Below, in pieces: positions 5,875 through 63,088 of a stretch of 64,000 nt of DNA. The translations under genes and the position numbers were made by a program. The first letter of the stretch is position 1. Every line of letters begins with the position of its first letter. The notes below the pieces were generated by a model. That model did no database searches. It worked only from the letters and a program-made list of their open reading frames with translations, and was not told where the DNA came from. Source of the DNA: a virus; IMG/VR virus record IMGVR_UViG_3300027963_000048, positions 1 to 64,000 of that record; one strand, written 5' to 3'.

Positions 5875-5882
5875 GAGTGGCT

Positions 5883-22000: not shown

Positions 22001-22235
22001 GATGGAAGAAGACGAAGATGAAGAAGAAGATGAGGGCGTAGCTGAAGACAACGACATCACCAGTCCCGCTCATAACAGCTACAAGGGTCTACTGAATCAA
22101 GATCCTCGACAAGACGTTGAAGTGAAAATGCCACATAAAAACAAGGGCGATCAAGAAGAAGGATTTGGTGGCACCAGGTCCTTGAAGAAGATCGACAAAA
22201 AGGGTAACACTCCTAATGTCAAATTCGAGGAATAA
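19011..22235 (+). CDS. large acidic prohead core/scaffold-like protein (1075 aa)
   Basis: Between portal and protease (the T4 gp67/gp68 position); many LxE/IxE sites, Pro/Ala linker, acidic repeats. Confidence 0.6.
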   Translation: MSVKKSEPVKIDSRKFLSIINDSAQSKIAFFEDRVKEIGKSLSKDYRLAALQPSDLVFEDVNSNEYFIANHSKNNGRIEISNIRPVEIYDNEKKQLYFESCLKLVNAIEENDQKEMGNAFSRMKAQRFSSRIIPEHGYVVGRDGISRKVNVVEGATIAAKVKRQIVEAVVDSLRDKVVVENNTVVSAYFNDGEPVNLPVTKWAGRKLIAKNMRETAKDAYLSPGFQNRIAKIAKQITEGKVAGAVSFIKPFLLENEEFTLLTKKELHKLVESTLATKAVFNQQLCEDVATLVYRTNLKVNRDTILNEWMRIGKFCEHPTLIENVHKLEESRKFEASYDCFLQMLFEAISNREVAAEALATTLDSLKTRTPRISESNDLSSKLASLVSRLRSKNVDDNAINEAEDLIATIQEELSAQDTLQDYDSMPGAQEAQGAQEPAAPPAPQAPVITINSPLISIGGQPVGQAGGDQDLAGLGLDDMGAEAAIPDLGAAPAAGAPPATDDFEMPPASPQAAPAAQPAQAPAQAGQAPARPGMPRSQPRQPGLPESRNRFGSALNESRPVHPEMQATGKRKPKRGGDHPEQLAEDRYFYADDVSIEGLNAYGNQTIPEDRVALVSNYMKGIKEGSEAHRLVKACRKAGVMVSESDIGSAIEQVHDYDHSTESDSKNADHDVMAEIDAIHHEIDSMHDRIDSIEDDSDEVDSEVGGLEDDESMMDSEVGGFEDEESMIDSEESEDEESTIDSEIEELEDEESTIDSEIEELEDDNDDELPEPEEGMAESQFKFPTAKKKRGMKSYAPRDNKRGPVAEGAIKWLRKQSDAVLGEARGVKFILDHGNHDPDFLPALLSEDGEIQIPMPKQLHEDAYALADRNQVSHRLHQYILRNVTVLRPISESEDTEINQTVAEIQRNADGGLSINVTDPSITVHNSGSEMAPVDGVAAELPAPDEATDDSMPDFGGNELDELEEEGEDEEMEEDEEEGEDEDEEMEEDEEEGEDEEMEEDEDEEEDEGVAEDNDITSPAHNSYKGLLNQDPRQDVEVKMPHKNKGDQEEGFGGTRSLKKIDKKGNTPNVKFEE
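21111..21300 (+). repeat. five ~42-nt (14-aa) tandem repeats, DSE(V/I)xxLEDEES(M/T)(M/I)
   Basis: ga(t/c)tctgaa units start at 21111, 21153, 21195, 21231 and 21273. Confidence 0.85.
21890..22040 (+). repeat. Glu/Asp repeat, about three copies of EEEGEDEEMEED
   Basis: Repeated gaagaagaaggcgaagacgaggagatggaag-like units. Confidence 0.8.
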
Positions 22236-22239
22236 TCCA

Positions 22240-22965
22240 ATGCAGAGTAGAACGACGGTGAGAAGCGTGGCTTTGAACCGCCGACTAATCGCTGAGACCG
22301 GCGCTATCCCTGCCGGTCTTCGGTTAATCCGCGATACAATGCCATTTGAACCACTCGATACAAAAATGACCGTGAACGAAGACGCTCATGGTCGAGAAGT
22401 CCATGTGATGCGAGTCAAGGGCCTCTTTCAAATGGGCGATCTTAGCAATGCTAACGGTCGTTATTACTCCACTAGAGAAGTGCTAGTACCAGCGGTACAG
22501 AGCATCCAAGAAGATGTCTCCGGCCGAGCGGTGATGGGAGAATTTGATCACCCAGCTGACGCAAAAATCCATCTAAATAATGTTAGCCATCTCATCACTA
22601 ACATTTGGATGGAAGGCCAAAAAGTTTACGGTGAAGCTGAAATTCTACACCGTTTACCAATGGGCGCCTGCTTACGTGGTCTATTCGAGCACAAAGTACG
22701 TGTCGGCATCAGCAGCCGCGGCGTCGGCGATATGGAGATGATCGAATCGGGTGGACAGCAACTCTATCGAGTTATGCCTGGATACACCTTCGTAACTTGG
22801 GATGCCGTCGCTGAGCCTTCTGTCTCTGGAGCCATTCTACATAACATACAGGAAGGCCTTTATAAAAAGGTCAACGCTGTCAAAAAGATGAAACCGCAAT
22901 TGCGACCAGAGACTTACCAAAAGACCTTGGTTGAAGAAATAAACAAGTATTTTGGCATTAAGTAA
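22240..22965 (+). CDS. prohead core protease (T4 gp21-like)
   Basis: NANGRYY, GEFDHP (His), GISSRGVG (Ser), WDAVAEPS (Asp). Confidence 0.95.
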   Translation: MQSRTTVRSVALNRRLIAETGAIPAGLRLIRDTMPFEPLDTKMTVNEDAHGREVHVMRVKGLFQMGDLSNANGRYYSTREVLVPAVQSIQEDVSGRAVMGEFDHPADAKIHLNNVSHLITNIWMEGQKVYGEAEILHRLPMGACLRGLFEHKVRVGISSRGVGDMEMIESGGQQLYRVMPGYTFVTWDAVAEPSVSGAILHNIQEGLYKKVNAVKKMKPQLRPETYQKTLVEEINKYFGIK

Positions 22966-39044: not shown

Positions 39045-39940
39045 TGGCCGCATTAGAATACCCAAGATGGAAATTCAGGTACGCTAGGTATAAGACAGAT
39101 CCTAGGCCAGATATTCTATTGCTTGGTAGTTATAAGAATCCTGGGACTGGTAACACTTTAGTCGGCGGCGTTAATCTTAATTATTGCACAGATAAAGAGA
39201 TAAATCAAATTCGATCCGCCTTAGATAAATTCGCAGCCGGTAAGTCGCTCTATCAGCGATATCACATCGGTAGGCAATTGTTCCCTAGCGTTTTCACTAA
39301 CAAATACAGAACATATAAAGCTAGCGAGATTAAGGGGTTAGAGAAAGATGTAATTTATCCCACGATGGGTGTTTTGCAACGTATTGGGCAATTCGCAAAA
39401 TCACTGTTTAACAAGGCACTCGGTCGCACGCCTAGAAAACAAGAGATAGAAGATTTAGATAACATCGATCCTGAATCATATCAGGAGATGAAGAAAACAG
39501 TGCAGACACCGCAAGAATTCGATGATAAATTAGACGTAGCGATCAAAGATATCGACTCCGATTCTCAGGTACCGGTCCCTGAAGTAGAAAAGGCTCAAGA
39601 AGAGCAGCAAGCTGCTACTGACGCACGCTTAACCAGCCAAATGTCGATGCAGCAAGAGACACCACCTGAAGCAGATGAACTGTCGAAGCCGGACACCGAA
39701 CTGGACGTGATGCAAGCGCCCGAGACAGTAGAATTGGCGGAACCGACACCAGAATTACAGGATCCTGTGCCATTTGAAGAACCCGAAGAAATTGAAGCAA
39801 CAGATACGCCTGAGCAAGATCTTGATGAAGTTAGCGAGGAGAAACCGGTACAGCCGGTAATAAATCAAAAGATCGATCAAGCATTGGCGCGTACCGGCAA
39901 TAAGCCAGGCGAAAAGGATCTTGGCATGCCTGGTGCCTGA
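39044..39940 (+). CDS. possible DNA end protector (T4 gp2-like) with acidic C-terminal tail
   Basis: FRY..YKTDPRPDILLLG...LVGGVNLNY...YRTY resembles gp2 D.FPL...GLNLHY. Confidence 0.5.
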   Translation: MAALEYPRWKFRYARYKTDPRPDILLLGSYKNPGTGNTLVGGVNLNYCTDKEINQIRSALDKFAAGKSLYQRYHIGRQLFPSVFTNKYRTYKASEIKGLEKDVIYPTMGVLQRIGQFAKSLFNKALGRTPRKQEIEDLDNIDPESYQEMKKTVQTPQEFDDKLDVAIKDIDSDSQVPVPEVEKAQEEQQAATDARLTSQMSMQQETPPEADELSKPDTELDVMQAPETVELAEPTPELQDPVPFEEPEEIEATDTPEQDLDEVSEEKPVQPVINQKIDQALARTGNKPGEKDLGMPGA

Positions 39941-41564: not shown

Positions 41565-43197
41565 CAAATTCGGTAAAGATCTCTTGCAATGGGCCCTAAA
41601 AAATAAGCATATATCGCAATCAGAACAAGCTTATATTCTAGGGATTTCTCTAGAAGCCTATAGACGTAGGATTAGGACAGCAGGCAAGCCGAAAGGGGTA
41701 TCGAATTTTAAACCAACGGGTAACCCGCTACCATGTATCCCACCAGATGGCCATTACAGTGACCCTGTCTGGTTACGTGACGCCTACGCCAAGCACTCCG
41801 TGCGAGATCTTGCCAGGCACTTCGGCATATCAAGTAAGAGGATAACAGATTACTTAACAAAATTCCGAATATCGAAACCAGTTGTACCGGTTAGCCCCTA
41901 TAATAACAGACAATGGTTATTTTTTTATTATTGGGTAAAGAGATTAAACGTAGCTCGCTTAGCCAAGAGAGCTGGAGTAGCATATGGTACCATTATGAAT
42001 TGGCTAACGAAGCATAGAGTGCCTATCCGACACATAGGGATCAGCAAACACCAGAGATTTCACGAGCATTATGTCTCGACCTTCAGGCAAATCCGCAACT
42101 GTCAGTGGCTGTCGGTAATTTGGCATGACCAAAAGTTCATCATGCTTTACGCTAATTTGAGGAAACGGTATTTTATAACATTGCATTTCGTAAACAAGGT
42201 CACAGATGGTCTGCAGATCACGCTATGGCAAAAACCAGCTATAACCGACTGGGATCGAATCTTTGTCTCGTGCAAAGAAGGCGATCTAACGCAAGAGCAG
42301 GCTAATCCCGCATATCTTAAAGCCACGATGGATTTCTCAGCCCATCCCTTGCATAGGATAGCGGTCCGAATGCAATTCTTTGACATGTTCAAAGCACAAA
42401 ACGGAAGATTCGATTTCGATAAATCTGATCTACTAGCCGATTTACAACAATGCTATGATACTAAACGCTCATTGATCACCAGAAATGGGAAATGGTTTTT
42501 CCATAGCATGCAGGGTAACAAGAAACAGAAGGGTAGACGCATTGCTTTCCATTGTTGGGGTTTATCTGAATATGTTAATAAATGGTATAGCATGCCGAAG
42601 TTTTTGCGCTGGGCTCCGCATCGTTATTTCGATAAAATTCAAAATCCCACCACTTTCGATATGCTAAATCAGGTATGTCAACACCGACGAAATAGCAGAC
42701 ACCCGGATCTACTTCCAGAGCCGTCCCTTTTAAGATTCATTTTAGAAGAGATAAAACCGGAGACCATGGTAGATCTTTGGCCTAATAAAGGCTTAAATGC
42801 TATCTCAGCACATATGGCTAATGTGCACTATCATAGCAGAGTGATAAGCGATGACAATATAAAACGTTTAAAATCCATCGGTATCTACGCCTACAGAGAG
42901 GATCCGTATCGCAAGTATGACCTTCTGGTTTGCCTGTCTAAGACATATAAAGTGAAGCCTTGGATGTTAGAGGGATTCTTCAGTAAGGCAGATAGGATTT
43001 TAATATATGCTAGTGCTTGGCATATTGGTGACACTATTAATTTGTACAAGCCTGAGCGTGTCTTCTCGTTAATCAATAGGTTCAAATCTAGAAAACCTCC
43101 GTATTATTTGCTATTGTTGAAAAAGGATGAGACGATGGCCTCGATTAGAGGCGCATCAGAGACATGGCCCAGTGAATTCCCACCCCGGCAAAGCTAA
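41548..43197 (+). CDS. multi-HTH protein with degenerate methyltransferase-like C-terminus
   Basis: Two Y.D..WL...Y....S...LA...G.S..TI..WL.K..I-type HTH repeats; PEPSLLRFILEEIKPETMVDLWPNKG resembles a decayed SAM-binding motif. Confidence 0.55.
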   Translation: MRPPVNKFGKDLLQWALKNKHISQSEQAYILGISLEAYRRRIRTAGKPKGVSNFKPTGNPLPCIPPDGHYSDPVWLRDAYAKHSVRDLARHFGISSKRITDYLTKFRISKPVVPVSPYNNRQWLFFYYWVKRLNVARLAKRAGVAYGTIMNWLTKHRVPIRHIGISKHQRFHEHYVSTFRQIRNCQWLSVIWHDQKFIMLYANLRKRYFITLHFVNKVTDGLQITLWQKPAITDWDRIFVSCKEGDLTQEQANPAYLKATMDFSAHPLHRIAVRMQFFDMFKAQNGRFDFDKSDLLADLQQCYDTKRSLITRNGKWFFHSMQGNKKQKGRRIAFHCWGLSEYVNKWYSMPKFLRWAPHRYFDKIQNPTTFDMLNQVCQHRRNSRHPDLLPEPSLLRFILEEIKPETMVDLWPNKGLNAISAHMANVHYHSRVISDDNIKRLKSIGIYAYREDPYRKYDLLVCLSKTYKVKPWMLEGFFSKADRILIYASAWHIGDTINLYKPERVFSLINRFKSRKPPYYLLLLKKDETMASIRGASETWPSEFPPRQS

Positions 43198-43213
43198 AGA
43201 GAAGGAGATTATA

Positions 43214-45835
43214 ATGGCCACAGCTTATACTCGGATTCCTCCCTACACACAACTTACGGATGCGTCGACTGTAGCAATATCAGGCCCAGATGGTCTGGCT
43301 ACTGATTACCTATTCGACGCTCAAAGCCGAGCGCTGTGGTTCAAGGATGCGCAAGCGGCTACGTTTCTACACGGCACGACGCACATCAGCGAAGACCCGA
43401 TCCCTGGAGCAACGTGCGACACGCCAGGGTTACTGTCAGCTAACGACAAATGTAAGCTCGATGCGTTGTTGCAGACCAGAATCGGCGTACTAGGTTTTCA
43501 AGGTGCCGGATTCCCAGACGATGGCGGTTGGCTCCAAGGCGATATCATTTTGGCTGCAGGCACGGAATTTATCAGCCTCGAACGTATCGGCAACGTTGTC
43601 CGCTTTACTGTCGATAGCCCAGTCCCGCTTACATGCTCATGCGAATCATGTAACCAGATTTTCTGGGTGCAAGATGATACAGACACCGCAAGTGTCCGCC
43701 CTCCCGTTTGCTCAGGCAAATTGCCTGGTGTTAACTCCTATGGCGAGTTAAAGGTCTACGTCTTTCCGCAGAGCACGATAGTTGATCCAAATAACCCGTC
43801 GGCCAAGTTAAATCTAAAAGGCAATTATCCATCATTGATCTTTAAACGCTATGATGATACATTATCACCTGGGTCGGCTGAATTCGAATTGACCCTTAAG
43901 CGCAGCTCATTAAATAAGCTCGTAATGGAGACTGGGTGGGCTTTCACCCCCGGAGCGGTAGGTGGAGTAGCCGAATGCATCTGGTTTACTGGCTTGGATG
44001 CCGACGGCAAGCAAACCAGCTTCCAATTTAAACCAGATTCTGACTCTAATGCCCTCGGCATGCTGTTGTACAAAGGCAATCTAATTACAAAGAAGATGGG
44101 AGTGGTTACAGGATATGATTCATCAATCCTGACCAGTAACATCTATCAATGGCGCCAATGGGATATCCTAAATCAAAAACCCATTGGCGATTCTTATACA
44201 GCCACTAACGTTTGGATGTACAAAAATCCCGGCAGCGTCAGCACTGGTACCAGCGCTCAGGCGTTGATGCTTGACTATACAATCGATATCTTGCCAATTG
44301 GAACGTTAACCGATATCTGGGCATTTCAAGTCGGTGAAGTGAACGGCGTGGTTAACTACCGATATTTCTTTAATCAACGGCCAAGTATTAACCCGAATCA
44401 AATCTGGTCCACGATCGACCACGTAAGCTTCGGCGACACCGTCGTAGCACGTGACATCCAAAATGAAATAGCACACAGTGTCGATGGCTTTCCGATGACG
44501 ACTGACGTTCAGCCTGCTACCATTTACGATGACGGTCGTAACATAGAATTGAGCCGCTGGGGTATAACCAATTACGACGTACCAATCATCCCAATCACCG
44601 CAAATGGAGTAACTGGAACCGGACCTGTGCAGGCTAGCGACCTCAACGGCGCTTACATCGACACGACAAGACCAGCATTATTGGTTTATCCAAACGCGCA
44701 CACGTCAGCTGGCACAGCGCCTTTCGGAAACTACCAGCAGCCCACTATGATTTGGAGTCGGTCAAGCCTTAAAGATGGTTTGATACGTATCAGAATGGGG
44801 CGGCCAGGGTCTCCTGGGACCATTGGTGGTTTGAGTTCATACTTTGGCCCGGTCATAGGCAGAAACTACTTCGACGTGCTATTGAAGGCTAAGATTGATG
44901 AAGAGATGGAAGCTTATGGCCAGGTCGAAGCCATTGGTACTTTCGATGGATATCCGTTCATCCAAATATCTGGTGTTGCGTTCCACGATATTCCCAAGTT
45001 CGGAACTATAGAAATAATCAGCACCAGCTCTGCGACGGCTGGTAAGACTTTCCAATTTAACCGCAAGACGATCTTTGCAGGTGGGACTGGAACTGGCACC
45101 GTCAAGGATCTGGTCATGGGTACCGTACTGCTGAACACGTACACCGGCGCTGAACCATACGTTGGTCAAGCGGGTGACATCGTCAGATTCATCCAACAGG
45201 ATTACTCAAATCCAGTCGCAAGGACCATCTGGAATTATCAAGTCGTCGATGGGCAACCGATCACCACTTTGCAATTTACAGTCGGTATGCTTGATATGAC
45301 CAAACCTTACAATTATAACACTTACCCTGTAGAGGCAACGGAACCCCAAGCTAGTGACATTATCAGGGGCCTGAATGATACAGGCACTTACGGTGGTCCG
45401 ATCAGTAGTGCGATCTACCAGCAGAATGGCTTGTACTTTGGTACTGGCACCAAACCACCAAGCAGCGTAAGCTCATTCTTCATCGTTGAAGGCGGTAGTT
45501 TTGGAAGTAGCGATGGTAAAGAGTATTGGAACGAACTGACGATTATGGTTAAAAGTGAGCAAGTCTGGATTTGGTGGAACGACCTCTTAATCCCACCAAA
45601 TGCTAATGAGACTAACGCTCAACAAAATCCACCTACGTTCCAAATCACTCAGCCATACTATCTGATGAAAGACTTCAGTGCTCTCACGAGTGCAAGCCCT
45701 GCTTATTATCAAAAGGAAATGGAAGGTAAATACGGTATTCGATGCTTCCCCGGAGCCGTGATTAGGGATATCGATATCAAGGGACAAGTGCAATTGTTCA
45801 ACGAATACATCTACGGAAATCTAAATCTTGGCTAA
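43214..45835 (+). CDS. virion structural protein (tail fibre/baseplate-associated)
   Basis: ATCDTPGLLSANDKCKLD tail-fibre-type motif; G/T/S-rich beta composition; AAGGAG RBS. Confidence 0.6.
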   Translation: MATAYTRIPPYTQLTDASTVAISGPDGLATDYLFDAQSRALWFKDAQAATFLHGTTHISEDPIPGATCDTPGLLSANDKCKLDALLQTRIGVLGFQGAGFPDDGGWLQGDIILAAGTEFISLERIGNVVRFTVDSPVPLTCSCESCNQIFWVQDDTDTASVRPPVCSGKLPGVNSYGELKVYVFPQSTIVDPNNPSAKLNLKGNYPSLIFKRYDDTLSPGSAEFELTLKRSSLNKLVMETGWAFTPGAVGGVAECIWFTGLDADGKQTSFQFKPDSDSNALGMLLYKGNLITKKMGVVTGYDSSILTSNIYQWRQWDILNQKPIGDSYTATNVWMYKNPGSVSTGTSAQALMLDYTIDILPIGTLTDIWAFQVGEVNGVVNYRYFFNQRPSINPNQIWSTIDHVSFGDTVVARDIQNEIAHSVDGFPMTTDVQPATIYDDGRNIELSRWGITNYDVPIIPITANGVTGTGPVQASDLNGAYIDTTRPALLVYPNAHTSAGTAPFGNYQQPTMIWSRSSLKDGLIRIRMGRPGSPGTIGGLSSYFGPVIGRNYFDVLLKAKIDEEMEAYGQVEAIGTFDGYPFIQISGVAFHDIPKFGTIEIISTSSATAGKTFQFNRKTIFAGGTGTGTVKDLVMGTVLLNTYTGAEPYVGQAGDIVRFIQQDYSNPVARTIWNYQVVDGQPITTLQFTVGMLDMTKPYNYNTYPVEATEPQASDIIRGLNDTGTYGGPISSAIYQQNGLYFGTGTKPPSSVSSFFIVEGGSFGSSDGKEYWNELTIMVKSEQVWIWWNDLLIPPNANETNAQQNPPTFQITQPYYLMKDFSALTSASPAYYQKEMEGKYGIRCFPGAVIRDIDIKGQVQLFNEYIYGNLNLG

Positions 45836-46145
45836 GTTTACTCGGAGATTGGCGGTTAGCAGAGGCACGCACAAGGTCTCTGCTACCGAAGAAAACATCA
45901 AGGTCAAAATAAGACGAGCACTACTAACTGACCCTTTAGAACATGAACCCGTAAGTCCCTTCTCGAAAGGCCTGAAAGGCCATCAATTCATCGGTGAATT
46001 TAGTTTCAATGGAGTGCCCGCTCACGGGTTCGTGTTAAGGATATACGAACAGGGCCGGATGATCTTTAAGAGGGTCGTGCCACCTTCAGGCATTATTGGC
46101 GCTTTACCGTTAAAATCTAACCATTCCTATGTCATTACCCTCTAA
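45828..46145 (+). CDS. hypothetical basic protein
   Basis: 105-aa ORF with TTG start overlapping the upstream gene end. Confidence 0.55.
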   Translation: MAKFTRRLAVSRGTHKVSATEENIKVKIRRALLTDPLEHEPVSPFSKGLKGHQFIGEFSFNGVPAHGFVLRIYEQGRMIFKRVVPPSGIIGALPLKSNHSYVITL

Positions 46146-47949
46146 TGAAATTACGCAGCAGCTTACTTTCAGCGAGGACACTCATTGTAATGCGGGTGTC
46201 GATTGAACGCAAGAGCTTATCTAATGATTCTACAATGATCGCACGGTCGATCGCATCCCATTCGTTAAAGAAATTGTAAGCGCTCTGCTGCTGTTGCAAT
46301 GCCTTTTCTTGCTCTGTTTTGGCCTTGCGTTTCGTGCCGCCTTCGGACGCTTCGTTACGCAAGATCAAAGCGACGGCTTTTAATTTTCCAAGTACCTCGT
46401 TGTATCTGTCTCGGCTCAGTTTATTGCTGTAAGTTAGCTTGCCTGGTGGTGCTACTTTTCCTTCTTTAGCCAGTTCTGTTAATTCTTCCTCTTCCGTCTC
46501 GAAACTGCGACGGATGCCATCAAGTGATAAGACTGGCATTCCGCTACGCAGCCAAGGCGATTTGTATGGTGGGCCTTCTTTGCTTGGTTCTAACTCAGGG
46601 TCTTCCGTCCCAGCGACGTACCAGCCCGGATTACCACGTGGTATTTGGATATTAGATCTTTCTGTGCCTTTGCCAGGGTAACTAGCAGCGGCTTCACCTA
46701 AGATCCGGAGGAGCATCCGGTATTCGGTCTCCTTCACCTTGGTGGTGTCGTAGGTCGATTGACCGCCAGTCGGTAGGCCAAGCTCAGTAAGTTTAGCTAG
46801 ATATGGCGTGTCTTTTATCATGTCTGCGTAGCCGTACAGCATTAACTCTATCATGTCGCTGATCATACCAGGATCTAAGCGATCAGCTTCTTGAGTCATA
46901 CGGTCTGGAACCGACCCTGCGGCTGAGGTGACACCACCTTCGGGGCCTTCCTTGGGCTTATCGAGGCTGGTCGTTTTAATCTGGGTTACGCGGTCCGGCG
47001 TGTCGATTGTACTAAGCATACCGGTGGAAGCACCCTTAGATGACGCCTGATTAAAGAAGTCAATGCGTTCTTGTAGTGCTATTATCCCCTGCAGTGCCTT
47101 TTTGGTAGCTTCCTCGTCTCCTGAGGATGCTATAGCGGCAAACTCTTTACAGGCTTTGACGATGTCGGTGCTGTACCAGCCAAATGGGTTATCTATGTTT
47201 TTGTCACTGCGCGATTCAACGTCGAATGGGGGCTTGACTTGTGCTGCTACCTTTAGCGCTTGCTCTGCGGTAGGATTGTCAATGATCGATTGCAGGCCCT
47301 TTATTCCATATAAAGGGTGGTTTTTGTGTAGTTGCGATGACTTTCCTGATGCAGCCATAGTCTCGGCTGTGCCGCCTAAGCCGTTAAGCATTGCGTGCTT
47401 TACGTCTACCATGAGCCGTTTGATGAATGGTGGTTCGCCTCTGTCTACACCTGGCCGAATCATTTGACTTAGAGCTGTTAGGCCAAGCGAATAATAGTCT
47501 TCCCAAGACCCAGAACGGCTTCCTTTGCCAGCTAGCTTTTTCGCTATGCGATAAACTGGCGCCGATCCGTATGAGCCAGGATTGCGTGGTGATCGTCCCT
47601 TTTCGGTATCACTACGTGTCTGCCCAGTGATAGCTACGGTGGGGTCTCCCGCTACCGCGATGATGAATTGCTCAGGCGTGAATTGCGGCGCTGGCCCGCC
47701 GGGAGCAAAGTCCGGCGGTGGGGTAAAATTCTTGCTGCGCCATTCTTTTGTATAATGCGCCTTGCTATCGAGCGGATTGATCGTATTATGCAATATGTCT
47801 TCTGCATAGCCACGATTATAACCAGCTGCGTAGGGATCTATCCAAGGCGCAGTCTTACTGTCTGCTTCAGAAAGGATCAGCTTAAATGCTGCAGCGCTTT
47901 CAGCTATCAGCCGAGCCAAAGATGCCGATAAAGAAGATTTAAAATCCAT
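46135..47949 (-). CDS. 604-aa protein with diverged sigma-70-like regions 2, 3.2 and 4
   Basis: PVYRIAKKLAGKG..SWEDYYSLGLTAL; TTSLDKP; VKETEYRMLLRILG; LSLDGI...LSRDRYNEV, in canonical order. Confidence 0.5.
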   Translation of the reverse strand: MDFKSSLSASLARLIAESAAAFKLILSEADSKTAPWIDPYAAGYNRGYAEDILHNTINPLDSKAHYTKEWRSKNFTPPPDFAPGGPAPQFTPEQFIIAVAGDPTVAITGQTRSDTEKGRSPRNPGSYGSAPVYRIAKKLAGKGSRSGSWEDYYSLGLTALSQMIRPGVDRGEPPFIKRLMVDVKHAMLNGLGGTAETMAASGKSSQLHKNHPLYGIKGLQSIIDNPTAEQALKVAAQVKPPFDVESRSDKNIDNPFGWYSTDIVKACKEFAAIASSGDEEATKKALQGIIALQERIDFFNQASSKGASTGMLSTIDTPDRVTQIKTTSLDKPKEGPEGGVTSAAGSVPDRMTQEADRLDPGMISDMIELMLYGYADMIKDTPYLAKLTELGLPTGGQSTYDTTKVKETEYRMLLRILGEAAASYPGKGTERSNIQIPRGNPGWYVAGTEDPELEPSKEGPPYKSPWLRSGMPVLSLDGIRRSFETEEEELTELAKEGKVAPPGKLTYSNKLSRDRYNEVLGKLKAVALILRNEASEGGTKRKAKTEQEKALQQQQSAYNFFNEWDAIDRAIIVESLDKLLRSIDTRITMSVLAESKLLRNFIRG

Positions 47950-47959
47950 CGAAGTAACC

Positions 47960-48496
47960 TCATAGCGTTTTATTATTTTTCATGGGAAGGTATAACAGAT
48001 TGTGGTTGACTTTTGCTCGGTCTAGAAACTCACGAAAAGGAAATTCAGTAGGTTGGTAATATAATTCCCGATGCTTCCGTATAAGACAGCTGCGAAGATC
48101 AACAGCTCCAAATTGATCCGTTGCAAATACAACGTCAGCCTTGTAATCGTCCAACGCTTGTTTCATTTTCGATAGTAGATCTTTTGGCTTGACACTATTC
48201 CAATATATGAAGCAAGGACCTAAGCTGTTATGGCTTGCGAGGTTTAGACACGTGCCGACAGTTAAGTCTTCCTCGGTATCATAAATCGACACCATACGCG
48301 CCGCTTCAATATCTAGATCAGCGGCTTTGGTTAAATTACTGGTATTATTAAGCAAGATGATTTCTTTATATGGATAATCTTGCTCTTGAACATTAGAAAG
48401 CAACTCCATGGCGTTATCATGTGCGTCAGGATATACGATTAGGGCCACACTGATTAGTTCAATGTGGCCCGTATGATTAGATTTTTGGAGTGACAT
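47960..48496 (-). CDS. glycosyltransferase GT2-like (diverged, short)
   Basis: LISVAL, QEQDYPYKEIILLNN, TVGTCLNLA; no clear DxD. Confidence 0.6.
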   Translation of the reverse strand: MSLQKSNHTGHIELISVALIVYPDAHDNAMELLSNVQEQDYPYKEIILLNNTSNLTKAADLDIEAARMVSIYDTEEDLTVGTCLNLASHNSLGPCFIYWNSVKPKDLLSKMKQALDDYKADVVFATDQFGAVDLRSCLIRKHRELYYQPTEFPFREFLDRAKVNHNLLYLPMKNNKTL

Positions 48497-48800
48497 TAGT
48501 GAGAATGTACTCGATGATCTTTTTAAGCAGGAAGCTAGCGATCAGTTCCCAAGGGAATAGCAAATGCGGTTGAGGCTCGCCGTTAGCGACGATCTCTATT
48601 AGTGTTAAAGGGTCTTGCTCGGCTGCTTGCGAGACGAATTGTGTGCCCTCTGGAGCACCAAGGATTTGCTTTTGGCAGTAACCTTGTACCACCCAAGCAT
48701 CTAGGGCGAATTGAGCCCGATTCTCTACGACTGTGCCAGCCCTCAACAGCTTTACTACGTTGAGCATTTCTTGAACTGGGACATCTGCCGGATAATTCAT
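48477..48800 (-). CDS. hypothetical protein
   Basis: 107-aa ORF with AAGGAGG RBS. Confidence 0.7.
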   Translation of the reverse strand: MNYPADVPVQEMLNVVKLLRAGTVVENRAQFALDAWVVQGYCQKQILGAPEGTQFVSQAAEQDPLTLIEIVANGEPQPHLLFPWELIASFLLKKIIEYILTNVTPKI

Positions 48801-50495: not shown

Positions 50496-52172
50496 ATGAA
50501 ACTTGCACTTATTCTAGAGGCGAAGCTTAACCGCCCTTGGCTCGAAAAACAGCTCGGTAAAGATAATCCAGCTGTTCAAAAAATCGTGAACACTGATCCA
50601 ACCGAAGGTTCATATTACCAATGGTTGGCATCTTTGTACAAGAAGCGCGGATCAGATGACTTCTTAACTCGGGAATTACGCGCAGACATCGACGAATGGG
50701 ATCGCAATAAACAAGCATTGAAAAATCTTGAAATCAGCAGTGACTTAAACGGCAAGGACTTGACGTACTTGGCGGACAATCTAGAATCATTAAGGTACGA
50801 TAGGGCTTTGAGAGCGTCTACAGGCTTAGGCAGCGGTGTCTATCACCTCAGTAAAGATTATCCAGGCGCTAAAATATTACTGAATGACGGACAGTATATT
50901 CTGTTCGAGATAGCGGGCAAAGACGCAGCTTCGATTGATAGTCTTGAGCGACTTGGGATGGGCACGTCTTGGTGTACTAGAAAAGGCAGTAATATCAGTG
51001 GGGCTGCGCAGCGATATCTAAAATCACGCACGCAGTATGTTCTATATAGGGATAAAAAACCTCTATATCAATTCGATGATAAAGACTTCATGAATGCTAG
51101 AAATGAAAATGTTATCCCTGAGCGTGATGCCGCTTCGAAGATCCTTGATGCCATGGGATATGCGTGTAATGAAGCATTGATGGTGGCTCAGATAGCCTAT
51201 GGCGATCCGAAATCTGTCAATATGACGCAAGACATGGTCAATAAGTACAAGCAAGGTGTATACCGTTTCGATGGAGTTACCGGTTTTCAACGCATTCCAG
51301 CGTTGGAAGCGTTTATCAAGTCAGACATGCACGAATACATCTTGTACGCCACCCAAATTCTAAAAAGGCGCGTGCCGGAAATCGAGGAATGGTTCATTAA
51401 TAATAACAATAAGTTTAGATCCCATACACAGCGCTACTTTACTGACCACTTGACTAACTACCTGTTATCATGCTGCAAATTTGAGGAATGGCCGGAGGGT
51501 GAAGAACTGCTGAAGGAGAATTTGGCTGCATATACACGTTATTTTGTGCAACGCCGCACTCAACCCAACGTGTTAATAGAACGTTCGCCTGAATTGGAAA
51601 AATGGCTGTTAGCCGCCGTTAATTTGGTACCCGTGGATTTTGTAGAAGATGGCAATCTAAATCTGATATTAAATTACCTATGGGACCTCAAAGTTGGAGA
51701 ATGGCCGGAAGGTGAGAAAAGACTCCTTAACAGTGCTAGCTTAGAGGGTTTACGGTATGCTATACACGTACACAAACGTTCCATAGCCGTAGAGAATTGG
51801 CTGGCGGCAGAGTGCTCAATCTTCCATGTCAAGGATTACGTAGCCCATGTGACGGATGGTAAACCGATTCCAGATTTCGAAGATAAAGCCATAGCGGCTA
51901 TGAAGTCCTCTTTAGCAACTAAGCCGCGTGATGGACAGTATCCGTATCCGGAACCTGTTTTCGCAGCGAGGTACGCACTTGAGGTATTAAAGCGACGGTG
52001 GCCTGCTGCTGAAAATATAATCTCGCTTGGTCGGCCTAACCATCCAGACATTGAAGCGTATTTTAAAGAATTCAATTATGCCATGGGTCATCAAGGCTTA
52101 ACTAACCAACCGTCAGGACGTACAGGAATGCCCGGCCAAAAGCCATGGGCTCTGTACAGCGAATCAAAGTAG
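50496..52172 (+). CDS. paralog 1: MKLxLILEA leader, GTxWCT (PcfJ-like?) domain, degenerate helical repeats
   Basis: DPTEGSYYQWL, DLNGKDL, LGMGTSWCTR, WPEGE-type repeats. Confidence 0.8.
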   Translation: MKLALILEAKLNRPWLEKQLGKDNPAVQKIVNTDPTEGSYYQWLASLYKKRGSDDFLTRELRADIDEWDRNKQALKNLEISSDLNGKDLTYLADNLESLRYDRALRASTGLGSGVYHLSKDYPGAKILLNDGQYILFEIAGKDAASIDSLERLGMGTSWCTRKGSNISGAAQRYLKSRTQYVLYRDKKPLYQFDDKDFMNARNENVIPERDAASKILDAMGYACNEALMVAQIAYGDPKSVNMTQDMVNKYKQGVYRFDGVTGFQRIPALEAFIKSDMHEYILYATQILKRRVPEIEEWFINNNNKFRSHTQRYFTDHLTNYLLSCCKFEEWPEGEELLKENLAAYTRYFVQRRTQPNVLIERSPELEKWLLAAVNLVPVDFVEDGNLNLILNYLWDLKVGEWPEGEKRLLNSASLEGLRYAIHVHKRSIAVENWLAAECSIFHVKDYVAHVTDGKPIPDFEDKAIAAMKSSLATKPRDGQYPYPEPVFAARYALEVLKRRWPAAENIISLGRPNHPDIEAYFKEFNYAMGHQGLTNQPSGRTGMPGQKPWALYSESK

Positions 52173-52185: not shown

Positions 52186-53649
52186 ATGAAACTATCACTC
52201 ATACTAGAGGCTAAACTTAATCGCCCCTGGCTCGAAAAACAGCTCGGTATAGATAATCCAGCTGTTCAAAAAATCGTAGACACCGACCCAACTGGCGGAT
52301 CTTATTACAAATGGTTAACTGCGCTTTATCAAAAGTCGCAATCCGATGATTTTCTCACGCCCGAATTAAAAGCCGACATCGGAGAATGGGCCAATAACGC
52401 AAGAGCTATCAAAAGTGCAGGATTAAGCTCAGACTTGAACGGTAAAGATCTCGCATACTTCTATGACGTGCTAGCAAAAATGCGGCAGTATAAAGCCATT
52501 AAAGCCTCACACACTAAAAATAGTGGGGCCTATTATTTATTCAATAATTATCCAGGGGCCGAAGCTATTTATAATGACGGCAATTATATCATGTTTAAAG
52601 TCGAAGGCAAGAACGAAGAATCGATAGACAGCTTGCAGAAACTCGGAATCGGAACCGGATGGTGCACCAGGCTAGGCGGCGATGTGGAGGGTGCCGCTGA
52701 AGAATACTTATCTGATACGCAATATGTGTTGTATAAAAATGGTGAGCCTATCTGTCAATTCAGTAGACAAGACTTTAAAGATGTGCGTGATGAAGAATAC
52801 AAGCCACCTGCTGATGTGTTACGATTAATACTTAAAGTGGTCGGCCCAATTAATGATCAATTAAAGACGCTAGAGATAGGACAAAGGATAGCTGAATCAA
52901 ACAACTTCGCCGATGCATCACCCGAAGACCTGTGTCGCTATGCTGTGGCCATGAAACAGCGGTGGCCAGAAGCTGAGCCAATCATTAAAACATCACCAAA
53001 GTGGGCCCGAGAATACGCATTAAACGTCTTAGGGGAAACGTGGCCTGACGCCGAACCGTATATCATGACAGACCCTCAGTCTGCCGTGGTTTATGCTATA
53101 CATCTAAAGGGTCGATGGCCGGAAGCTGAAAAATATATCAAGCAAGATCCCGGATATGCTATACTATACGCTAGAAAATTATTTAATAAAGGCGAACGAT
53201 TTCTTGAAGCCGAGCCGTATATCGAAAAGGACGCTCGCATGGCGTTCGAATACGCCCAAAGAATCATAAAAGGTGAATGGCCAGACGCAGAAAAGTATAT
53301 CATGCAGGATCCTCAGGTGGCCTACAATTATGCTGCTTACGTGAGGGAAGACCGCTGGCCAGCAGCTGAACCCATCATAATGCGAGATCCTCAGGTAGCA
53401 TACAAGTATGCTTATGCTTTCATAAATGGTGAATGGCCAGAGGCGGAACCATACATAATGACTGAACCATATACAGCATATGCTTACGCTAGGTTTCTAA
53501 AAAGGGAGCGATGGCCAGAGGCCGAACCGTACATCAAGAAGAATCCCGAGGCCGCTAAACTTTATTTTGATTGGGTTAATAAGGATATCAGCAGAGGTGC
53601 GGACGCCTATGATGACTCGTCGAGTTGGGTTGATGCACGAAATATATAA
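52186..53649 (+). CDS. paralog 2: same N-domain plus 8 regular WPxAE helical repeats
   Basis: LGIGTGWCTR; repeats such as RWPEAEPYIxxDPxxAxxYA. Confidence 0.8.
   Translation: MKLSLILEAKLNRPWLEKQLGIDNPAVQKIVDTDPTGGSYYKWLTALYQKSQSDDFLTPELKADIGEWANNARAIKSAGLSSDLNGKDLAYFYDVLAKMRQYKAIKASHTKNSGAYYLFNNYPGAEAIYNDGNYIMFKVEGKNEESIDSLQKLGIGTGWCTRLGGDVEGAAEEYLSDTQYVLYKNGEPICQFSRQDFKDVRDEEYKPPADVLRLILKVVGPINDQLKTLEIGQRIAESNNFADASPEDLCRYAVAMKQRWPEAEPIIKTSPKWAREYALNVLGETWPDAEPYIMTDPQSAVVYAIHLKGRWPEAEKYIKQDPGYAILYARKLFNKGERFLEAEPYIEKDARMAFEYAQRIIKGEWPDAEKYIMQDPQVAYNYAAYVREDRWPAAEPIIMRDPQVAYKYAYAFINGEWPEAEPYIMTEPYTAYAYARFLKRERWPEAEPYIKKNPEAAKLYFDWVNKDISRGADAYDDSSSWVDARNI
52960..53570 (+). repeat. 8 tandem ~25-28 aa repeats, (R/E/T)WP(E/D/A)AE(P/K)(Y/I)IxxDPxxAxxYA
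   Basis: Counted directly in the translation; one copy reads RFLEAE. Confidence 0.9.
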
Positions 53650-53770: not shown

Positions 53771-55177
53771 ATGAAGTTATCACTTATCCTAGAGGCGAAG
53801 CTTAATCATACTTGGCTCGAAAAACAGCTCGGTAAAGATCACCCAGCAGTGCAAAAAATCGTAGACACGGATCCGACCGGTGGCTTTTATTATGAATGGT
53901 TGGTGCAAAGATTTAAACAAGCGAACACAGACCAATTTCTAACACCGCAATTGCGAGATTCAATCGTCGAATGGGATAGAAACAAGCAAGTGCTGCGTAA
54001 TCTAAATATCGATGCTGACTTAAATGGTAAAAATTTAGCTTATTTTAATGATGCTTTAGAAAAGATCCGAGAACATAAGGCCATTAAAGCATCATCAGTG
54101 CGCGGTTCAGGCGTGACGCACATGGGCACGGAGTACCCAGGCGCAAAGGTCATATATGATGATGGTCAGTATGTTCTCTTTAAAATCGAAGGTACGAGCC
54201 CAGAGGCAATCGACAGCTTAGAGCGATTGGGAGTGGGTACTCGTTGGTGCACGAGAAGAGGCGGTAGAGTTAATAAGGCAGCTGAACATTTAAGCACAGA
54301 CACACAGTATGTGCTTTACAAAGATAAAAAGCCATTATATCAATTCGACTCTAGTGAATTTAAGGACACTCACAATCTTCCCGAATATAGCATACCAGAC
54401 AAAGCGTCAGCGCTCATAATGTTAGACTATGTGGGACCTATCAACGATACTCTAAAATTCGCCGCTGCAGTTTACGAATACGATACCTCAATGCTGTCTG
54501 AAGTGCCTGAAATTCTTGCTCGTTACCTGAGTGGAAACTTACCGACTTTCATTCAACCATCTGAAGTGATTGAGCAGTATCTATTACAACAATGCGAAAA
54601 TGGCGAGGACGAAGAGGCAGCTTACCATCTCATCGATTATGCAAAACACTACAGAGTAGGCCGTTGGCCAGCGGCAGAGCCGTATTTGATACATGATCCT
54701 AAAACGGCATATGCTTACGCTGATAGAGTCATCGGTGGTCGATGGCTCGAAGCTGAATCTATCATTGCCAAAAGCGCTACTGCCGTTAGCTACGCCATTG
54801 CCTTCTTCGGGGGTGACAGATGGCTTGAAGCCGAACCATATCTGCTTAACGAAGGTGAGGTAATACATGCCATACTCTATGCTGGTAAAGTATTAGAAGG
54901 GCGCTGGCCAGCTCTAGAGCATCGTATCGCAAAAATGGATCAGCCGCTGTTTGCCATGATGGAATACACAAGGTTGGTACTCAATCGCCTTCCAAATGGC
55001 CCAAAGTCGCTGCCTGAATTTGAGCAAGCTGTGATCAACGATCCTTACAAAGCATATAATTATGCTAGGCGTGTTATTAACGCAAGGTGGCCAGAAGCAG
55101 AACCTATAATTATGGCGTCGAAATATGCAAATGATTACCAACACTGGCTAACAGCCAAAGAGGCGCTACCGTTTTAA
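53771..55177 (+). CDS. paralog 3: same N-domain plus WPxAE/WLEAE repeats
   Basis: LGVGTRWCTR; RWPAAEPYL, RWLEAE repeats. Confidence 0.8.
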   Translation: MKLSLILEAKLNHTWLEKQLGKDHPAVQKIVDTDPTGGFYYEWLVQRFKQANTDQFLTPQLRDSIVEWDRNKQVLRNLNIDADLNGKNLAYFNDALEKIREHKAIKASSVRGSGVTHMGTEYPGAKVIYDDGQYVLFKIEGTSPEAIDSLERLGVGTRWCTRRGGRVNKAAEHLSTDTQYVLYKDKKPLYQFDSSEFKDTHNLPEYSIPDKASALIMLDYVGPINDTLKFAAAVYEYDTSMLSEVPEILARYLSGNLPTFIQPSEVIEQYLLQQCENGEDEEAAYHLIDYAKHYRVGRWPAAEPYLIHDPKTAYAYADRVIGGRWLEAESIIAKSATAVSYAIAFFGGDRWLEAEPYLLNEGEVIHAILYAGKVLEGRWPALEHRIAKMDQPLFAMMEYTRLVLNRLPNGPKSLPEFEQAVINDPYKAYNYARRVINARWPEAEPIIMASKYANDYQHWLTAKEALPF

Positions 55178-62518: not shown

Positions 62519-63088
62519 ATGGGAAATAGATTTAGCTCTCCTGACATTCCTTCAGTAGAATGCAACTATATTGAATCGATCTTAGTAAAGTTGGTACATT
62601 ACATAAATAAAGCCCTTAAGGTATCGTATAGGCCATGCGACTTTTGGGGCTTTGCATGGACTTGCTACCACAAGTGCAAAGTATACGAGACTCATTGGCG
62701 CTATTATTTTTTTATCAGCTTATATCGTATAATCTATCAATTTATTCTTAAGGAAAATCAGAACGTAGCCCTGAGACTTAGGGGCAAGGATCTAGTTGAT
62801 AAACTGGAGGCTACACAAATGAACACTTTAAACACCGCATGGCACAACTTCCTTAAAACAAACGGTGGAATAGAGCACGTTGTAGAAGTCTTGCTGTTTG
62901 ACCAGCCAAAAGCCCAACGTCAAATGATAATAGATCACTACGTGAATGGAATGACGACTGAAGAAATCGGTAAGGCGTATGGGATTACCAAAAACAGAGT
63001 TAGACAGTTAATGAAAGCGAATTTAGCACTGCTTAAGGAATTCTTATATTATGTTAAGGATCTAGGTGAATTTTTATCTGAATTATAG
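62519..63088 (+). CDS. small sigma-factor-like protein (region 4 HTH)
   Basis: QPKAQRQMIIDHYVNGMTTEEIGKAYGITKNRVRQLMKANL. Confidence 0.7.
   Translation: MGNRFSSPDIPSVECNYIESILVKLVHYINKALKVSYRPCDFWGFAWTCYHKCKVYETHWRYYFFISLYRIIYQFILKENQNVALRLRGKDLVDKLEATQMNTLNTAWHNFLKTNGGIEHVVEVLLFDQPKAQRQMIIDHYVNGMTTEEIGKAYGITKNRVRQLMKANLALLKEFLYYVKDLGEFLSEL

What the first reader, a model, noticed from the sequence alone, without database searches (positions are those of the whole stretch)
46135..47949. Highly diverged 604-aa sigma-70-like protein that may be packaged in the virion
Seen: segments match sigma-70 regions in the right order, separated by large insertions. PVYRIAKKLAGKG..SWEDYYSLGLTAL compares with region 2.1-2.2 LVVSIAKKY..RG..FLDLIQEGNIGL. 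PFIKRLMVDVKHAM sits at 2.3-2.4, TTSLDKP at 3.2, KETEYRMLLRILG at 4.1, and LSLDGI..F...LSRDRYNEV compares with TLEEIG..F.VTRERIRQI at 4.2. Both termini carry protease-type sites (LIAES, ILSEA, IVES, LAES), and the gene lies among virion genes. Inference: an injected sigma factor or sigma mimic could redirect host RNA polymerase before any phage gene is expressed. I know of no characterised example, but the similarity is by eye only.
Basis: inference. Interest (0 to 1): 0.8.

Follow-up and report, generated by a model that had tools for sequence, protein, structure and literature searches.

The report
Diverged phage sigma factor with propeptide
A 604-residue protein of an uncultured giant phage is most likely a very diverged sigma factor carrying a conserved head-protease cutting site near its start, so it may travel in the virus particle and redirect the host's RNA polymerase on entry; nothing has been tested at the bench.

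Summary
The ORF is real. It lies on the minus strand at 46135-47949 of a 115.6-kb fragment of a T4-capsid-type jumbo phage. It belongs to an unannotated family of about 60 clusters at 50% identity, with no Pfam, PHROG, NCBIfam or PDB sequence hit.

Several weak, independent tests agree with the sigma reading:
- Sub-threshold Sigma70_r2 hits occur in 9 of 55 relatives.
- AlphaFold models (pLDDT 83 and 89) find sigma domain 2 (Z 6.5-7.3) and sigma domain 4 as their best structural neighbours. Sigma domain 4 takes the top hit (Z 5.0) and about 27 of the top 50 rows.
- A disordered linker between the two domains carries a region-3.2-like S-L-D-x-P motif.

Packaging is inferred, not shown:
- 46 of 49 relatives have hydrophobic-x-Glu 14-18 residues from the start, which is the T4 gp21 cleavage motif.
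- All five genomes examined encode a gp21-type protease.
- Conserved sites also flank the C-terminus, as in T4 Alt.

The claim that the gene lies "among virion genes" is not confirmed. Three relatives share a drifting two-box promoter class, and this protein is the only sigma-type gene with full-length orthologues in all of them.

A virion-borne sigma has proteomic precedent in phage Arash. This scan has flagged similar candidates on other DNA.

The parts
46135..47949 (-). Whole ORF, 604 aa plus stop (protein P0001)
   Evidence: The family has about 60 clusters at 50% identity. Full-length orthologues occur in four jumbo-phage contigs.
47899..47949 (-). Residues 1-17: amphipathic N-terminal leader ending L-I-A-E, the putative propeptide removed by the head protease
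   Evidence: 46 of 49 relatives have [LIMVF]-x-E at this aligned position, 14-18 residues from the Met. P1 is Glu in 47 of 49 and P3 is Ile or Leu in 38 of 49. The T4 gp21 motif is L/I-X-E (PMC9026906).
47866..47898 (-). Residues 18-28: variable spacer with a second site (I-L-S-E), present only in this phage and its 80%-identical relative
   Evidence: Alignment block; this stretch is a gap in most members.
47560..47853 (-). Residues 33-130: the most conserved, family-specific N-terminal region (Trp/Pro/Gly-rich), containing a sigma-region-1.2-like segment. It sits where sigma-70 has its non-conserved region.
   Evidence: Conservation. hhalign extends the sigma match into it. Structural alignments to sigma fragments start at model residues 44-54.
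47347..47559 (-). Residues 131-201: sigma regions 2.1, 2.2 and 2.3, including the D-x-x-x-x-G core-binding-type motif of region 2.2
   Evidence: hhalign. A sigma region-2 HMM hits about 20 relatives, always at residues 133-165. Pfam Sigma70_r2 matches 9 of 55 relatives below threshold.
47014..47346 (-). Residues 202-312: helical remainder of the domain-2-like bundle, possibly region 2.4/3.0 with an insertion
   Evidence: AlphaFold pLDDT is above 90 here. All sigma-2 structural alignments end at model residues 310-316.
46882..47013 (-). Residues 313-356: disordered linker with an S-L-D-x-P motif, resembling sigma region 3.2
   Evidence: pLDDT is below 50. Ser328 is nearly invariant. A sigma region 3-4 HMM maps its region 3.2 to residues 321-353 in about 10 relatives, best iE 1.8e-4.
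46342..46881 (-). Residues 357-536: sigma-domain-4-like helical domain
   Evidence: Domain model has pLDDT 88.8 and pTM 0.85. The VIA-align wide search puts sigma-H domain 4 (3mzy_A) first at Z 5.0. About 27 of the top 50 rows are sigma region-4 domains, several covered end to end.
46525..46686 (-). Residues 422-475: highly conserved non-helical insertion (Arg/Trp/Pro-rich) between the 4.1-like and 4.2-like helices
   Evidence: Invariant or nearly invariant residues R431, R438, W443, D450, P451, E452, W462, S464 and W466. Secondary structure.
46138..46341 (-). Residues 537-604: C-terminal helices with conserved hydrophobic-x-Glu sites (around residues 561-563, 572-575 and 592-595). In relatives, tails of 0-300 residues follow.
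   Evidence: T4 Alt is likewise trimmed at both ends by gp21 (PMC9026906).
47960..48496 (-). Upstream gene, 10 nt away on the same strand: GT2-like glycosyltransferase, probably co-transcribed and syntenic in all relatives
   Evidence: the L007 homologue matches Glycos_transf_2 at E 9e-12.
22216..22965 (+). T4 gp21-type prohead protease (Peptidase_S77), the enzyme proposed to cut the leader. Its own N-terminus carries R-L-I-A-E-T.
   Evidence: 65.8 bits; N-terminus.

Best explanation
The gene encodes a very diverged sigma-70-family protein. Its layout is: a propeptide; a region-1.2-like segment with a family-specific insertion; sigma domain 2 (regions 2.1-2.3); a disordered region-3.2-like linker; sigma domain 4 split by a conserved 54-residue insertion; and a C-terminal tail.

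It is made as a precursor. During head assembly the phage's T4 gp21-type protease removes the 17-residue N-terminal leader after L-I-A-E, and probably the C-terminal tail as well. That implies the protein sits inside the prohead, since gp21-type proteases act only there. It would then leave the capsid with the DNA, bind the host's core RNA polymerase and start transcription from the phage's own two-box promoters. These promoters (GGATTT-N17-TGYCACA in this phage) precede dozens of small genes.

Shown here: the family exists, the sigma-like sequence and fold signals, the conserved cleavage-type motif, the presence of the protease, and the conserved promoter class.

Inferred: cleavage, packaging, ejection, polymerase binding, and which promoters it reads.
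For: Sigma identity:
- hhalign of the family against a sigma alignment hits only regions 2.1-2.4 (P 0.0027); with region 1.2 included, E is 3.3e-4 over 123 columns.
- Pfam Sigma70_r2 is the commonest family among relatives (9 of 55, sub-threshold), with scattered Sigma70_r4_2, GerE and other HTH hits.
- A home-made sigma region-2 HMM hits about 20 relatives, always at residues 133-165. Region 3.2 maps to residues 321-353.
- The whole-protein model has pLDDT 82.7. Its best neighbours are sigma-28 (9wsm_F, Z 7.3, rmsd 2.7, 77 residues), sigma-28/FlgM (Z 7.3), sigma-S (Z 7.0, 94 residues), an RpoS region 1.2+2 fragment (90 of 96 residues, Z 6.9), SigB, sigma-70 (1sig) and the SigE N-terminal domain.
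- The C-terminal domain model (pLDDT 88.8) has sigma-H domain 4 as its top hit. About 27 of the top 50 rows are sigma domain 4.
- ESM Atlas features point to Sigma70_r2 clusters (a lead only).

Packaging:
- 46 of 49 relatives carry [LIMVF]-x-E 14-18 residues from the Met, followed by a variable spacer.
- Peptidase_S77 is present in the window's phage and in all four relatives.
- Conserved C-terminal sites exist, paralleling T4 Alt, which is cut at both ends, ejected and acts on host RNA polymerase (PMC9026906).
- Neighbouring gene families and other proteins of this phage also start with short leaders ending in hydrophobic-x-E.

Role:
- No polymerase of the bacterial beta or beta-prime type or the T7 type is detectable in the two near-complete relatives.
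- A homologous two-box promoter class with the same spacing but drifted boxes recurs in the three genomes where it could be looked for: 17, 34 and 49 copies.
- This protein is the only sigma-type gene with full-length orthologues in all of them.

Precedent: a sigma factor was detected in Arash virions by mass spectrometry (PMC10585845).
Against: - No single sigma test is strong. P0001 itself has no Pfam hit at E<=1. hhalign probabilities are only 11-38%. Structural Z scores (5.0-7.3) lie in the range that helical bundles reach by common arrangement. Foldseek finds nothing significant in PDB or BFVD.
- Sequence profiles do not support region 4 (E 0.14). The two HTH-like helices are joined by a long helix extension and a 13-residue loop, not a tight turn.
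- By the hhalign register, the DNA-melting aromatics of region 2.3 (sigma-70 Y430, W433, W434) are R, V and D in this protein. Most relatives keep only the first.
- There is no proteomic, cleavage or expression evidence.
- The leader is family-specific and is not a shared capsid-targeting tag.
- The gene is not in the head module, and no T4-type late promoter signal was found.
- The phage also encodes a canonical 313-aa sigma (304-1245) and a region-4-type protein (62519-63088) that could read the cassette promoters instead.
Confidence: 0.4

Rival explanations
1. It is a diverged sigma factor made after infection and not packaged. It directs host RNA polymerase to middle or late phage genes, like SPO1 gp28/gp34 or the sigma homologues common in polymerase-less jumbo phages. 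The conserved N-terminal helix would serve another purpose, such as autoinhibition like region 1.1 or a pro-sigma sequence, or docking to another phage protein.
For: All the sigma evidence applies equally. The gene lies outside the head module, next to a glycosyltransferase and HTH proteins. Reviews state that jumbo phages lacking a polymerase often encode sigma homologues (PMC13282480). An amphipathic helix can conserve hydrophobic-x-x-Glu patterns for structural reasons.
Against: It does not explain three things: the helix ends in [LI]-x-E at a fixed distance from the Met in 46 of 49 members that share only about 30% identity; an indel-rich spacer follows at once; and conserved sites also flank the variable C-terminal tails. 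All of this occurs in genomes that encode a gp21-type protease.
Confidence: 0.3
2. It is packaged and ejected but acts as a sigma mimic or decoy rather than an initiation factor. It would occupy the sigma-binding surface of host core polymerase to shut off host transcription, or anchor the incoming DNA, without recognising promoters itself.
For: Region 2.2-type core-binding motifs are kept, while the region 2.3 melting aromatics are largely lost in this protein. The HTH of domain 4 is non-canonical. The propeptide evidence is as in the main explanation.
Against: Both a sigma-2-like and a sigma-4-like domain, plus a region-3.2-like linker, are conserved across the family, which is more than a decoy needs. 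A clade-wide two-box promoter class with sigma-type 16-18 bp spacing needs a reader.
Confidence: 0.1
3. It is not functionally related to sigma factors. It would be a helical internal head or scaffold-type protein, or another protein of unknown function, whose helical bundles resemble sigma domains by chance or by very ancient divergence.
For: All sigma scores are individually sub-threshold. Z scores of 5-7 are common for helical models, and many four-helix bundles score alongside the sigma hits. Foldseek finds nothing. The most conserved parts of the family are the non-sigma insertions.
Against: Four different kinds of test converge on the same family, in the same register and with the domains in the right order. 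Sigma domain 4 fills about half of the top 50 out of 48,161 chains.
Confidence: 0.15

Closest known systems
Sigma-70 family initiation factors, especially two-domain (ECF-like) and group 3 sigmas such as sigma-28, sigma-S and sigma-H
   Same: The order is region 1.2-like, then regions 2.1-2.3, then a flexible 3.2-like linker with an S-L-D-x-P motif, then a four-helix domain-4-like module. The best structural neighbours of both folded domains are sigma domains.
   Different: It is 604 aa long, with insertions totalling more than 200 residues, a 17-residue leader and a C-terminal tail. It reaches no Pfam threshold. The region 2.3 tryptophans are absent, and the HTH helices are joined by a long loop. 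Polymerase binding is untested.
T4 Alt, a head-packaged ADP-ribosyltransferase that is ejected and modifies host RNA polymerase
   Same: It is a large non-structural protein of a phage with a T4-type head. It has L/I-x-E sites at both ends, as Alt has (PMC9026906), and the proposed target is host RNA polymerase at time zero.
   Different: The two proteins are unrelated in sequence and mechanism: a sigma-like subunit rather than an enzyme. Cleavage and packaging are not shown here.
Sigma factor Gp10 of Salmonella phage Arash, detected in virions by mass spectrometry (PMC10585845)
   Same: A sigma-family protein carried in phage particles.
   Different: Arash Gp10 is a recognisable RpoS-type sigma and travels with phage-encoded beta and beta-prime subunits. 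Here no phage polymerase is detectable in relatives, and the protein is far more diverged and carries a protease-type propeptide.
Pro-sigma-E and pro-sigma-K of Bacillus subtilis
   Same: These are sigma factors made with a 20-27-residue N-terminal pro-sequence that must be cut off. Pro-sigma-K appears among the structural hits (8vjl_B, Z 5.5).
   Different: The proteases differ (SpoIIGA and SpoIVFB) and so does the logic, which there is a developmental checkpoint. No homology between the leaders is shown.
Injected transcription machinery of other phages (N4 virion RNA polymerase, phiKZ and AR9 virion polymerases) and the sigma-like subunits phiKZ gp68 and AR9 gp226
   Same: The concept is the same: deliver what is needed for early transcription together with the DNA (PMC13282480).
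   Different: Those phages deliver whole polymerases. This would deliver only a specificity subunit for the host enzyme.

Membership tests
Sigma-70 family | Sequence match to region 2 (Pfam PF04542) above the curated cut-off | tested here: not met
   P0001 has no Pfam family at E<=1, and a genome-wide PF04542 search rings only at 304-1245. Nine of 55 relatives have sub-threshold hits, best E 0.004. Profile-profile E is 3.3e-4.
Sigma-70 family | Sigma domain 2 fold (helical bundle of regions 1.2 and 2.1-2.4) | tested here: inconclusive
   The best neighbours are sigma-2 domains at Z 6.5-7.3, covering nearly whole targets (90 of 96, 78 of 80, 100 of 106 residues). Unrelated helical bundles score similarly, and Foldseek is silent.
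Sigma-70 family | Region 2.2 core-binding motif (D-L-x-x-E-G-type helix) | tested here: met
   The family consensus D-L-Y-x-N-G aligns to D-L-I-Q-E-G. Gly156 is nearly invariant.
Sigma-70 family | Region 2.3 aromatic residues for promoter melting (sigma-70 Y430, W433, W434) | tested here: not met
   By the hhalign register these are R, V and D in P0001. Most relatives keep an aromatic only at the Y430 position. The alignment confidence is low, and ECF sigmas also lack the tryptophans.
Sigma-70 family | Region 4 helix-turn-helix (Pfam PF04545 or PF08281) | tested here: inconclusive
   No sequence support. By structure, sigma domain 4 is the top hit and fills about 27 of the top 50 rows, but Z is only 3.2-5.0. 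The two HTH helices are joined by a long loop.
Sigma-70 family | Binds core RNA polymerase and confers promoter-specific initiation | not testable with these tools
The host is unknown and there is no biochemistry.
Substrates of T4 gp21-type prohead protease (head-internal proteins) | L/I-x-E site near a terminus, conserved among homologues | tested here: met
   46 of 49 relatives have it, 14-18 residues from the Met. C-terminal sites are conserved as well. The motif definition comes from PMC9026906.
Substrates of T4 gp21-type prohead protease (head-internal proteins) | The phage encodes a Peptidase_S77 protease | tested here: met
   Window 22216-22965 scores 65.8 bits. All four related genomes have one.
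Substrates of T4 gp21-type prohead protease (head-internal proteins) | Cleaved form present in mature virions | not testable with these tools
   The phage is uncultured, and no homologue exists in any sequenced cultured phage.
T4 capsid targeting sequence (shared tag of IPI, IPII and IPIII) | The same leader is found on several unrelated proteins of the phage | tested here: not met
   A leader HMM finds only the sigma-like gene above reversed-sequence controls in G000 and G001. A different leader (M-K-L-x-L-I-L-E-A) is shared by other proteins of this phage.

The most novel reading that the evidence does not exclude
A giant phage with no polymerase of its own carries a pro-sigma factor in its head. 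The head protease matures it, it enters the cell with the DNA, and it makes host core RNA polymerase read a private, fast-drifting promoter class in front of the phage's early gene cassettes. Early transcription would then be independent of host sigma factors from the first second.
Probability: 0.3. Interest if true: 0.85.

Novelty: new variant of a known kind. Interest (0 to 1): 0.62.

Why it matters
If true, this would be a third way for a phage to secure its first transcripts, besides using host sigma-70 promoters or injecting a whole polymerase: delivering only the specificity subunit. It would explain how the early gene cassettes of this clade can carry promoters unlike any host consensus.

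It would also give a name and a testable function to an unannotated family of about 60 clusters found in 350-400-kb phages, and add a large, insertion-rich branch to the sigma-70 family. The conserved insertions may be new polymerase- or capsid-binding modules.

Even the conservative result is useful for annotation: a new, very diverged phage sigma family that current Pfam and PHROG models miss.

Tried and rejected
Searches that found nothing:
- Pfam, PHROG and NCBIfam scans and the PDB sequence search of P0001 found nothing. A profile search of PDB sequences gave only noise.
- tblastn against 50,697 phage records with P0001 and P0005 gave no match. A profile search of the three phage genomes with the nearest capsid genes (LR756511, Xoo-sp13, XacN1) was empty, and is uninformative because the first look raised no candidates.
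- Foldseek against PDB (whole model and C-domain) and BFVD gave nothing at E<=0.001. The Foldseek-led second look on the C-domain gave nothing above Z 2.7.
- hhalign of the C-terminal part against sigma regions 3-4 was not significant (E 0.14).

Ideas tested and dropped:
- That the leader is a shared capsid-targeting tag: an HMM of 42 leaders did not find other proteins above controls.
- That T4-type late promoters (TATAAATA) mark the gene as late: the motif is not enriched in the window or in G001 and is not upstream of the operon.
- That the exact promoter pattern of this phage occurs in relatives: it has zero copies there. Relaxed and de novo searches then found drifted versions.

A 12-row alignment worked.
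No neighbourhoods of the other family members and no co-fold with the beta-prime clamp helices could be obtained.

Not tested: presence of a T4 gp55-type late sigma in the relatives.
Full report
**What is there**

The window is the first 64 kb of a 115.6-kb IMG/VR virus contig that CheckV rates 32% complete, which implies a genome of roughly 350 kb. It encodes a terminase, a portal and a T4 gp23-type major capsid protein. It also encodes a T4 gp21-type prohead protease, Peptidase_S77, at 22216-22965.

The finding's ORF is real but lies on the minus strand: 46135-47949, 604 codons, with a GAGG ribosome-binding site 9 nt upstream of the ATG.

**A conserved, unannotated family**

P0001 has no hit in Pfam, PHROGs, NCBIfam, PDB sequences or 50,697 phage records. 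An exhaustive HMMER search of 1.84 billion representatives found 62 proteins (58 at E<=1e-10) of 550-950 residues, about 30% identical to P0001.

Four orthologues lie on jumbo-phage contigs of 354, 408, 146 and 176 kb; the first two are 98-100% complete. Gene order is conserved there: GT2-like glycosyltransferase, this gene, a roughly 310-aa protein, a 551-aa HTH protein, then a roughly 830-aa protein. In the window the segment holding this gene and the glycosyltransferase is inverted relative to the rest of that block.

**Is it sigma-like?**

No single test is strong, but independent tests agree.

1. *Profile against profile.* I built a sigma alignment from group 1-3 sigmas. With the N-terminal part included, the match grows to 123 columns, takes in region 1.2 and reaches E 3.3e-4 at 38% probability.
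2. *Pfam scan of each relative.* Sigma70_r2 is the commonest family (9 of 55, best E 0.004), alongside scattered Sigma70_r4_2, GerE and HTH hits.
3. *Home-made sigma HMMs.* A sigma region-2 HMM gives weak hits in about 20 relatives, all mapping to residues 133-165. A region 3-4 HMM places region 3.2 on residues 321-353 in about 10 relatives, and one relative reaches iE 1.8e-4 over regions 3.1-3.2. That stretch is disordered in the model and carries the S-L-D-x-P motif with a nearly invariant Ser328.
4. *Structure, whole protein.* The AlphaFold model has pLDDT 82.7. An all-against-48,161-chains search returns nine sigma entries in the top 50, all on domain 2. They include an RpoS region 1.2+2 fragment (Z 6.9, 90 of 96 residues), SigB (Z 6.9), sigma-70 1sig (Z 6.5, rmsd 1.9) and the SigE N-domain (78 of 80 residues). 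A second look puts sigma-28 (Z 7.3, twice) and sigma-S (Z 7.0) at the top.
5. *Structure, C-terminal domain.* Residues 355-545 folded alone give pLDDT 88.8 and pTM 0.85. The top hit is sigma-H domain 4 (Z 5.0), and about 27 of the top 50 rows are sigma region-4 domains. Several are covered end to end, for example sigma-E region 4 at 69 of 69 residues and SigA region 4 at 69 of 69.
6. *Language-model features.* ESM Atlas features point to Sigma70_r2 clusters; this is a lead only.

The weaknesses are real:
- Z scores of 5-7 are within reach of unrelated helical bundles, which do appear beside the sigma hits.
- Foldseek is silent.
- Sequence profiles do not support region 4.
- The two HTH-like helices are joined by a helix extension and a 13-residue loop rather than a tight turn.
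- The region 2.3 tryptophans are missing, and this phage's copy has also lost the tyrosine that most relatives keep.

I put the chance that this is a true, very diverged sigma-70 relative at about 0.8. It does not pass curated family thresholds.

**Architecture**

| Residues | Element |
|---|---|
| 1-17 | Leader |
| 18-32 | Spacer |
| 33-130 | Family-specific Trp/Pro/Gly-rich region with a region-1.2-like segment, at the position of sigma-70's non-conserved region |
| 131-201 | Regions 2.1-2.3 |
| 202-312 | Further helices of the bundle |
| 313-356 | Disordered 3.2-like linker |
| 357-536 | Domain 4, with a 54-residue, highly conserved insertion at 422-475 |
| 537-604 | C-terminal tail |

The most conserved residues of the family sit in the two non-sigma insertions. 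Their function is unknown.

**Is it packaged?**

The protein has 8 [LI]-x-E sites against 6.2 +/- 2.2 in shuffles, and its neighbours carry no structural annotation.

The family comparison gives a better argument:
- Of 49 relatives with an N-terminus, 46 have [LIMVF]-x-E at the same aligned place, 14-18 residues from the Met. P1 is Glu in 47, P3 is Ile or Leu in 38, and P1' is Ser, Asp, Asn or Ala. Two of the three exceptions are shifted by one residue. An indel-rich spacer follows.
- This is the T4 gp21 motif L/I-X-E. In T4, mature head proteins lose N-terminal propeptides of 7-65 residues, and Alt is trimmed at both ends (PMC9026906).
- Three hydrophobic-x-E sites are also conserved near the C-terminus, just before tails that vary from 0 to 300 residues.
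- The window's phage and all four relatives encode Peptidase_S77.
- The protease's own N-terminus carries R-L-I-A-E-T, almost the same as this protein's R-L-I-A-E-S.
- Other proteins of this phage begin with M-K-L-x-L-I-L-E-A. Two neighbouring gene families have short leaders ending in hydrophobic-x-E in the relatives.

Against packaging: the leader is private to this family and is not a shared capsid-targeting tag; the gene is far from the head module; and there is no proteomic or expression evidence. I put cleavage and packaging at about 0.5-0.6.

**What would it do?**

No polymerase of the beta or beta-prime type or the T7 type is detectable in the window's contig or the four relatives, two of them near-complete. 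These phages therefore probably use host core polymerase.

Earlier notes of this scan described about 30 cassettes carrying GGATTT-N17-TGYCAYA in front of small genes at 85-100 kb of this contig. I re-found 17 exact copies. The relatives lack that exact pattern, but de novo counting found related motifs:
- 34 copies of TTTAC-N16-CCACA in G001, upstream of small genes.
- 49 copies of TTAAC-N16-CAACA, read on the gene-sense strand, in G002.

These have the same spacing with drifted boxes, so they form a clade-wide promoter class of sigma-70-type geometry.

The window's canonical 313-aa sigma (304-1245) has only region-4-level matches in G001 and none by tblastn in G002. The sigma-like protein has full-length orthologues in all of the relatives. 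Host sigmas or the accessory phage sigmas are not excluded, and three genomes cannot show co-variation.

**Comparison with what is known, and novelty**

Phage-encoded sigmas are common in jumbo phages without a polymerase (PMC13282480). Head-protease propeptides and ejected head proteins that act on host polymerase are known from T4. A sigma factor has been seen in virions of phage Arash together with that phage's own polymerase (PMC10585845).

What is new here is an unannotated, insertion-rich sigma-like family that combines these traits in phages with no polymerase of their own. This scan has flagged similar packaged-sigma candidates on other DNA.

I therefore class it as a new variant of a known kind. 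Interest is moderate to high, because the central claim is directly testable but still inferential.

The contexts of most family members and a co-fold with polymerase parts could not be obtained.

Noticed in passing
window 304-1245 (+) and 62519-63088 (+): The phage also encodes a recognisable 313-aa sigma-70-family protein (Sigma70_r4 60 bits, r2 22 bits). A 189-aa protein has a Sigma70_r4-type HTH (37 bits). The 313-aa sigma has no full-length orthologue in the two complete relatives.
   Followed up: partly
window 50496-52172, 52186-53649, 53771-55177 (+); contig 66854-67654 and 68807-69238: Three tandem paralogues and two further proteins start with M-K-L-x-L-I-L-E-A or a close variant. This is a shared 9-residue leader built like T4's capsid-targeting sequence. 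Homologues in L010 start M-K-L-C-Q-I-L-T-R-T-L-T-E.
   Followed up: partly
window 38328-39044 (+): A 238-aa XRE/HTH-type regulator begins with a 22-residue leader ending R-I-L-S-E-S, similar in style to the sigma-like leader. It may be another processed DNA-binding protein.
   Followed up: no
window 22216-22965 (+): The prohead protease has R-L-I-A-E-T at residues 23-28, nearly identical to the sigma-like protein's site. This fits self-processing as proposed for T4 gp21.
   Followed up: no
G001 220-277 kb; G002 183-195 kb and scattered to 292 kb: The relatives carry their own versions of the two-box cassette promoter, with the same spacing and drifted boxes. G001 has 34 copies of TTTAC-N16-CCACA and G002 has 49 copies of TTAAC-N16-CAACA on the gene-sense strand. 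In G002 the motif is embedded in a longer conserved unit with a G/C hairpin.
   Followed up: partly
G001:C1:108463-110049 (locus L014): The Peptidase_S77 match is split into two pieces about 1.1 kb apart within one 642-aa open frame. This suggests an intein or another in-frame insertion in the head protease gene.
   Followed up: no
window 5877-10268 (+): A 1,463-aa ORF matches ribonucleotide reductase in three separate stretches, with a helicase-like or other insert around residues 580-1030. It is probably an intein or homing element within the reductase gene.
   Followed up: no
window 43127-45835 (+) and 39044-39940 (+): A roughly 830-900-aa protein (45% identical across five phages) and a roughly 300-aa protein always accompany the sigma-like gene. 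Neither has a family match. The 300-aa family has an M-K-L... leader ending I-L-E-D in the relatives but not in the window.
   Followed up: partly
window 46135-48800 versus L007-L009: The block holding the sigma-like gene, the glycosyltransferase and a 107-aa gene is inverted in this phage relative to the conserved downstream genes.
   Followed up: no
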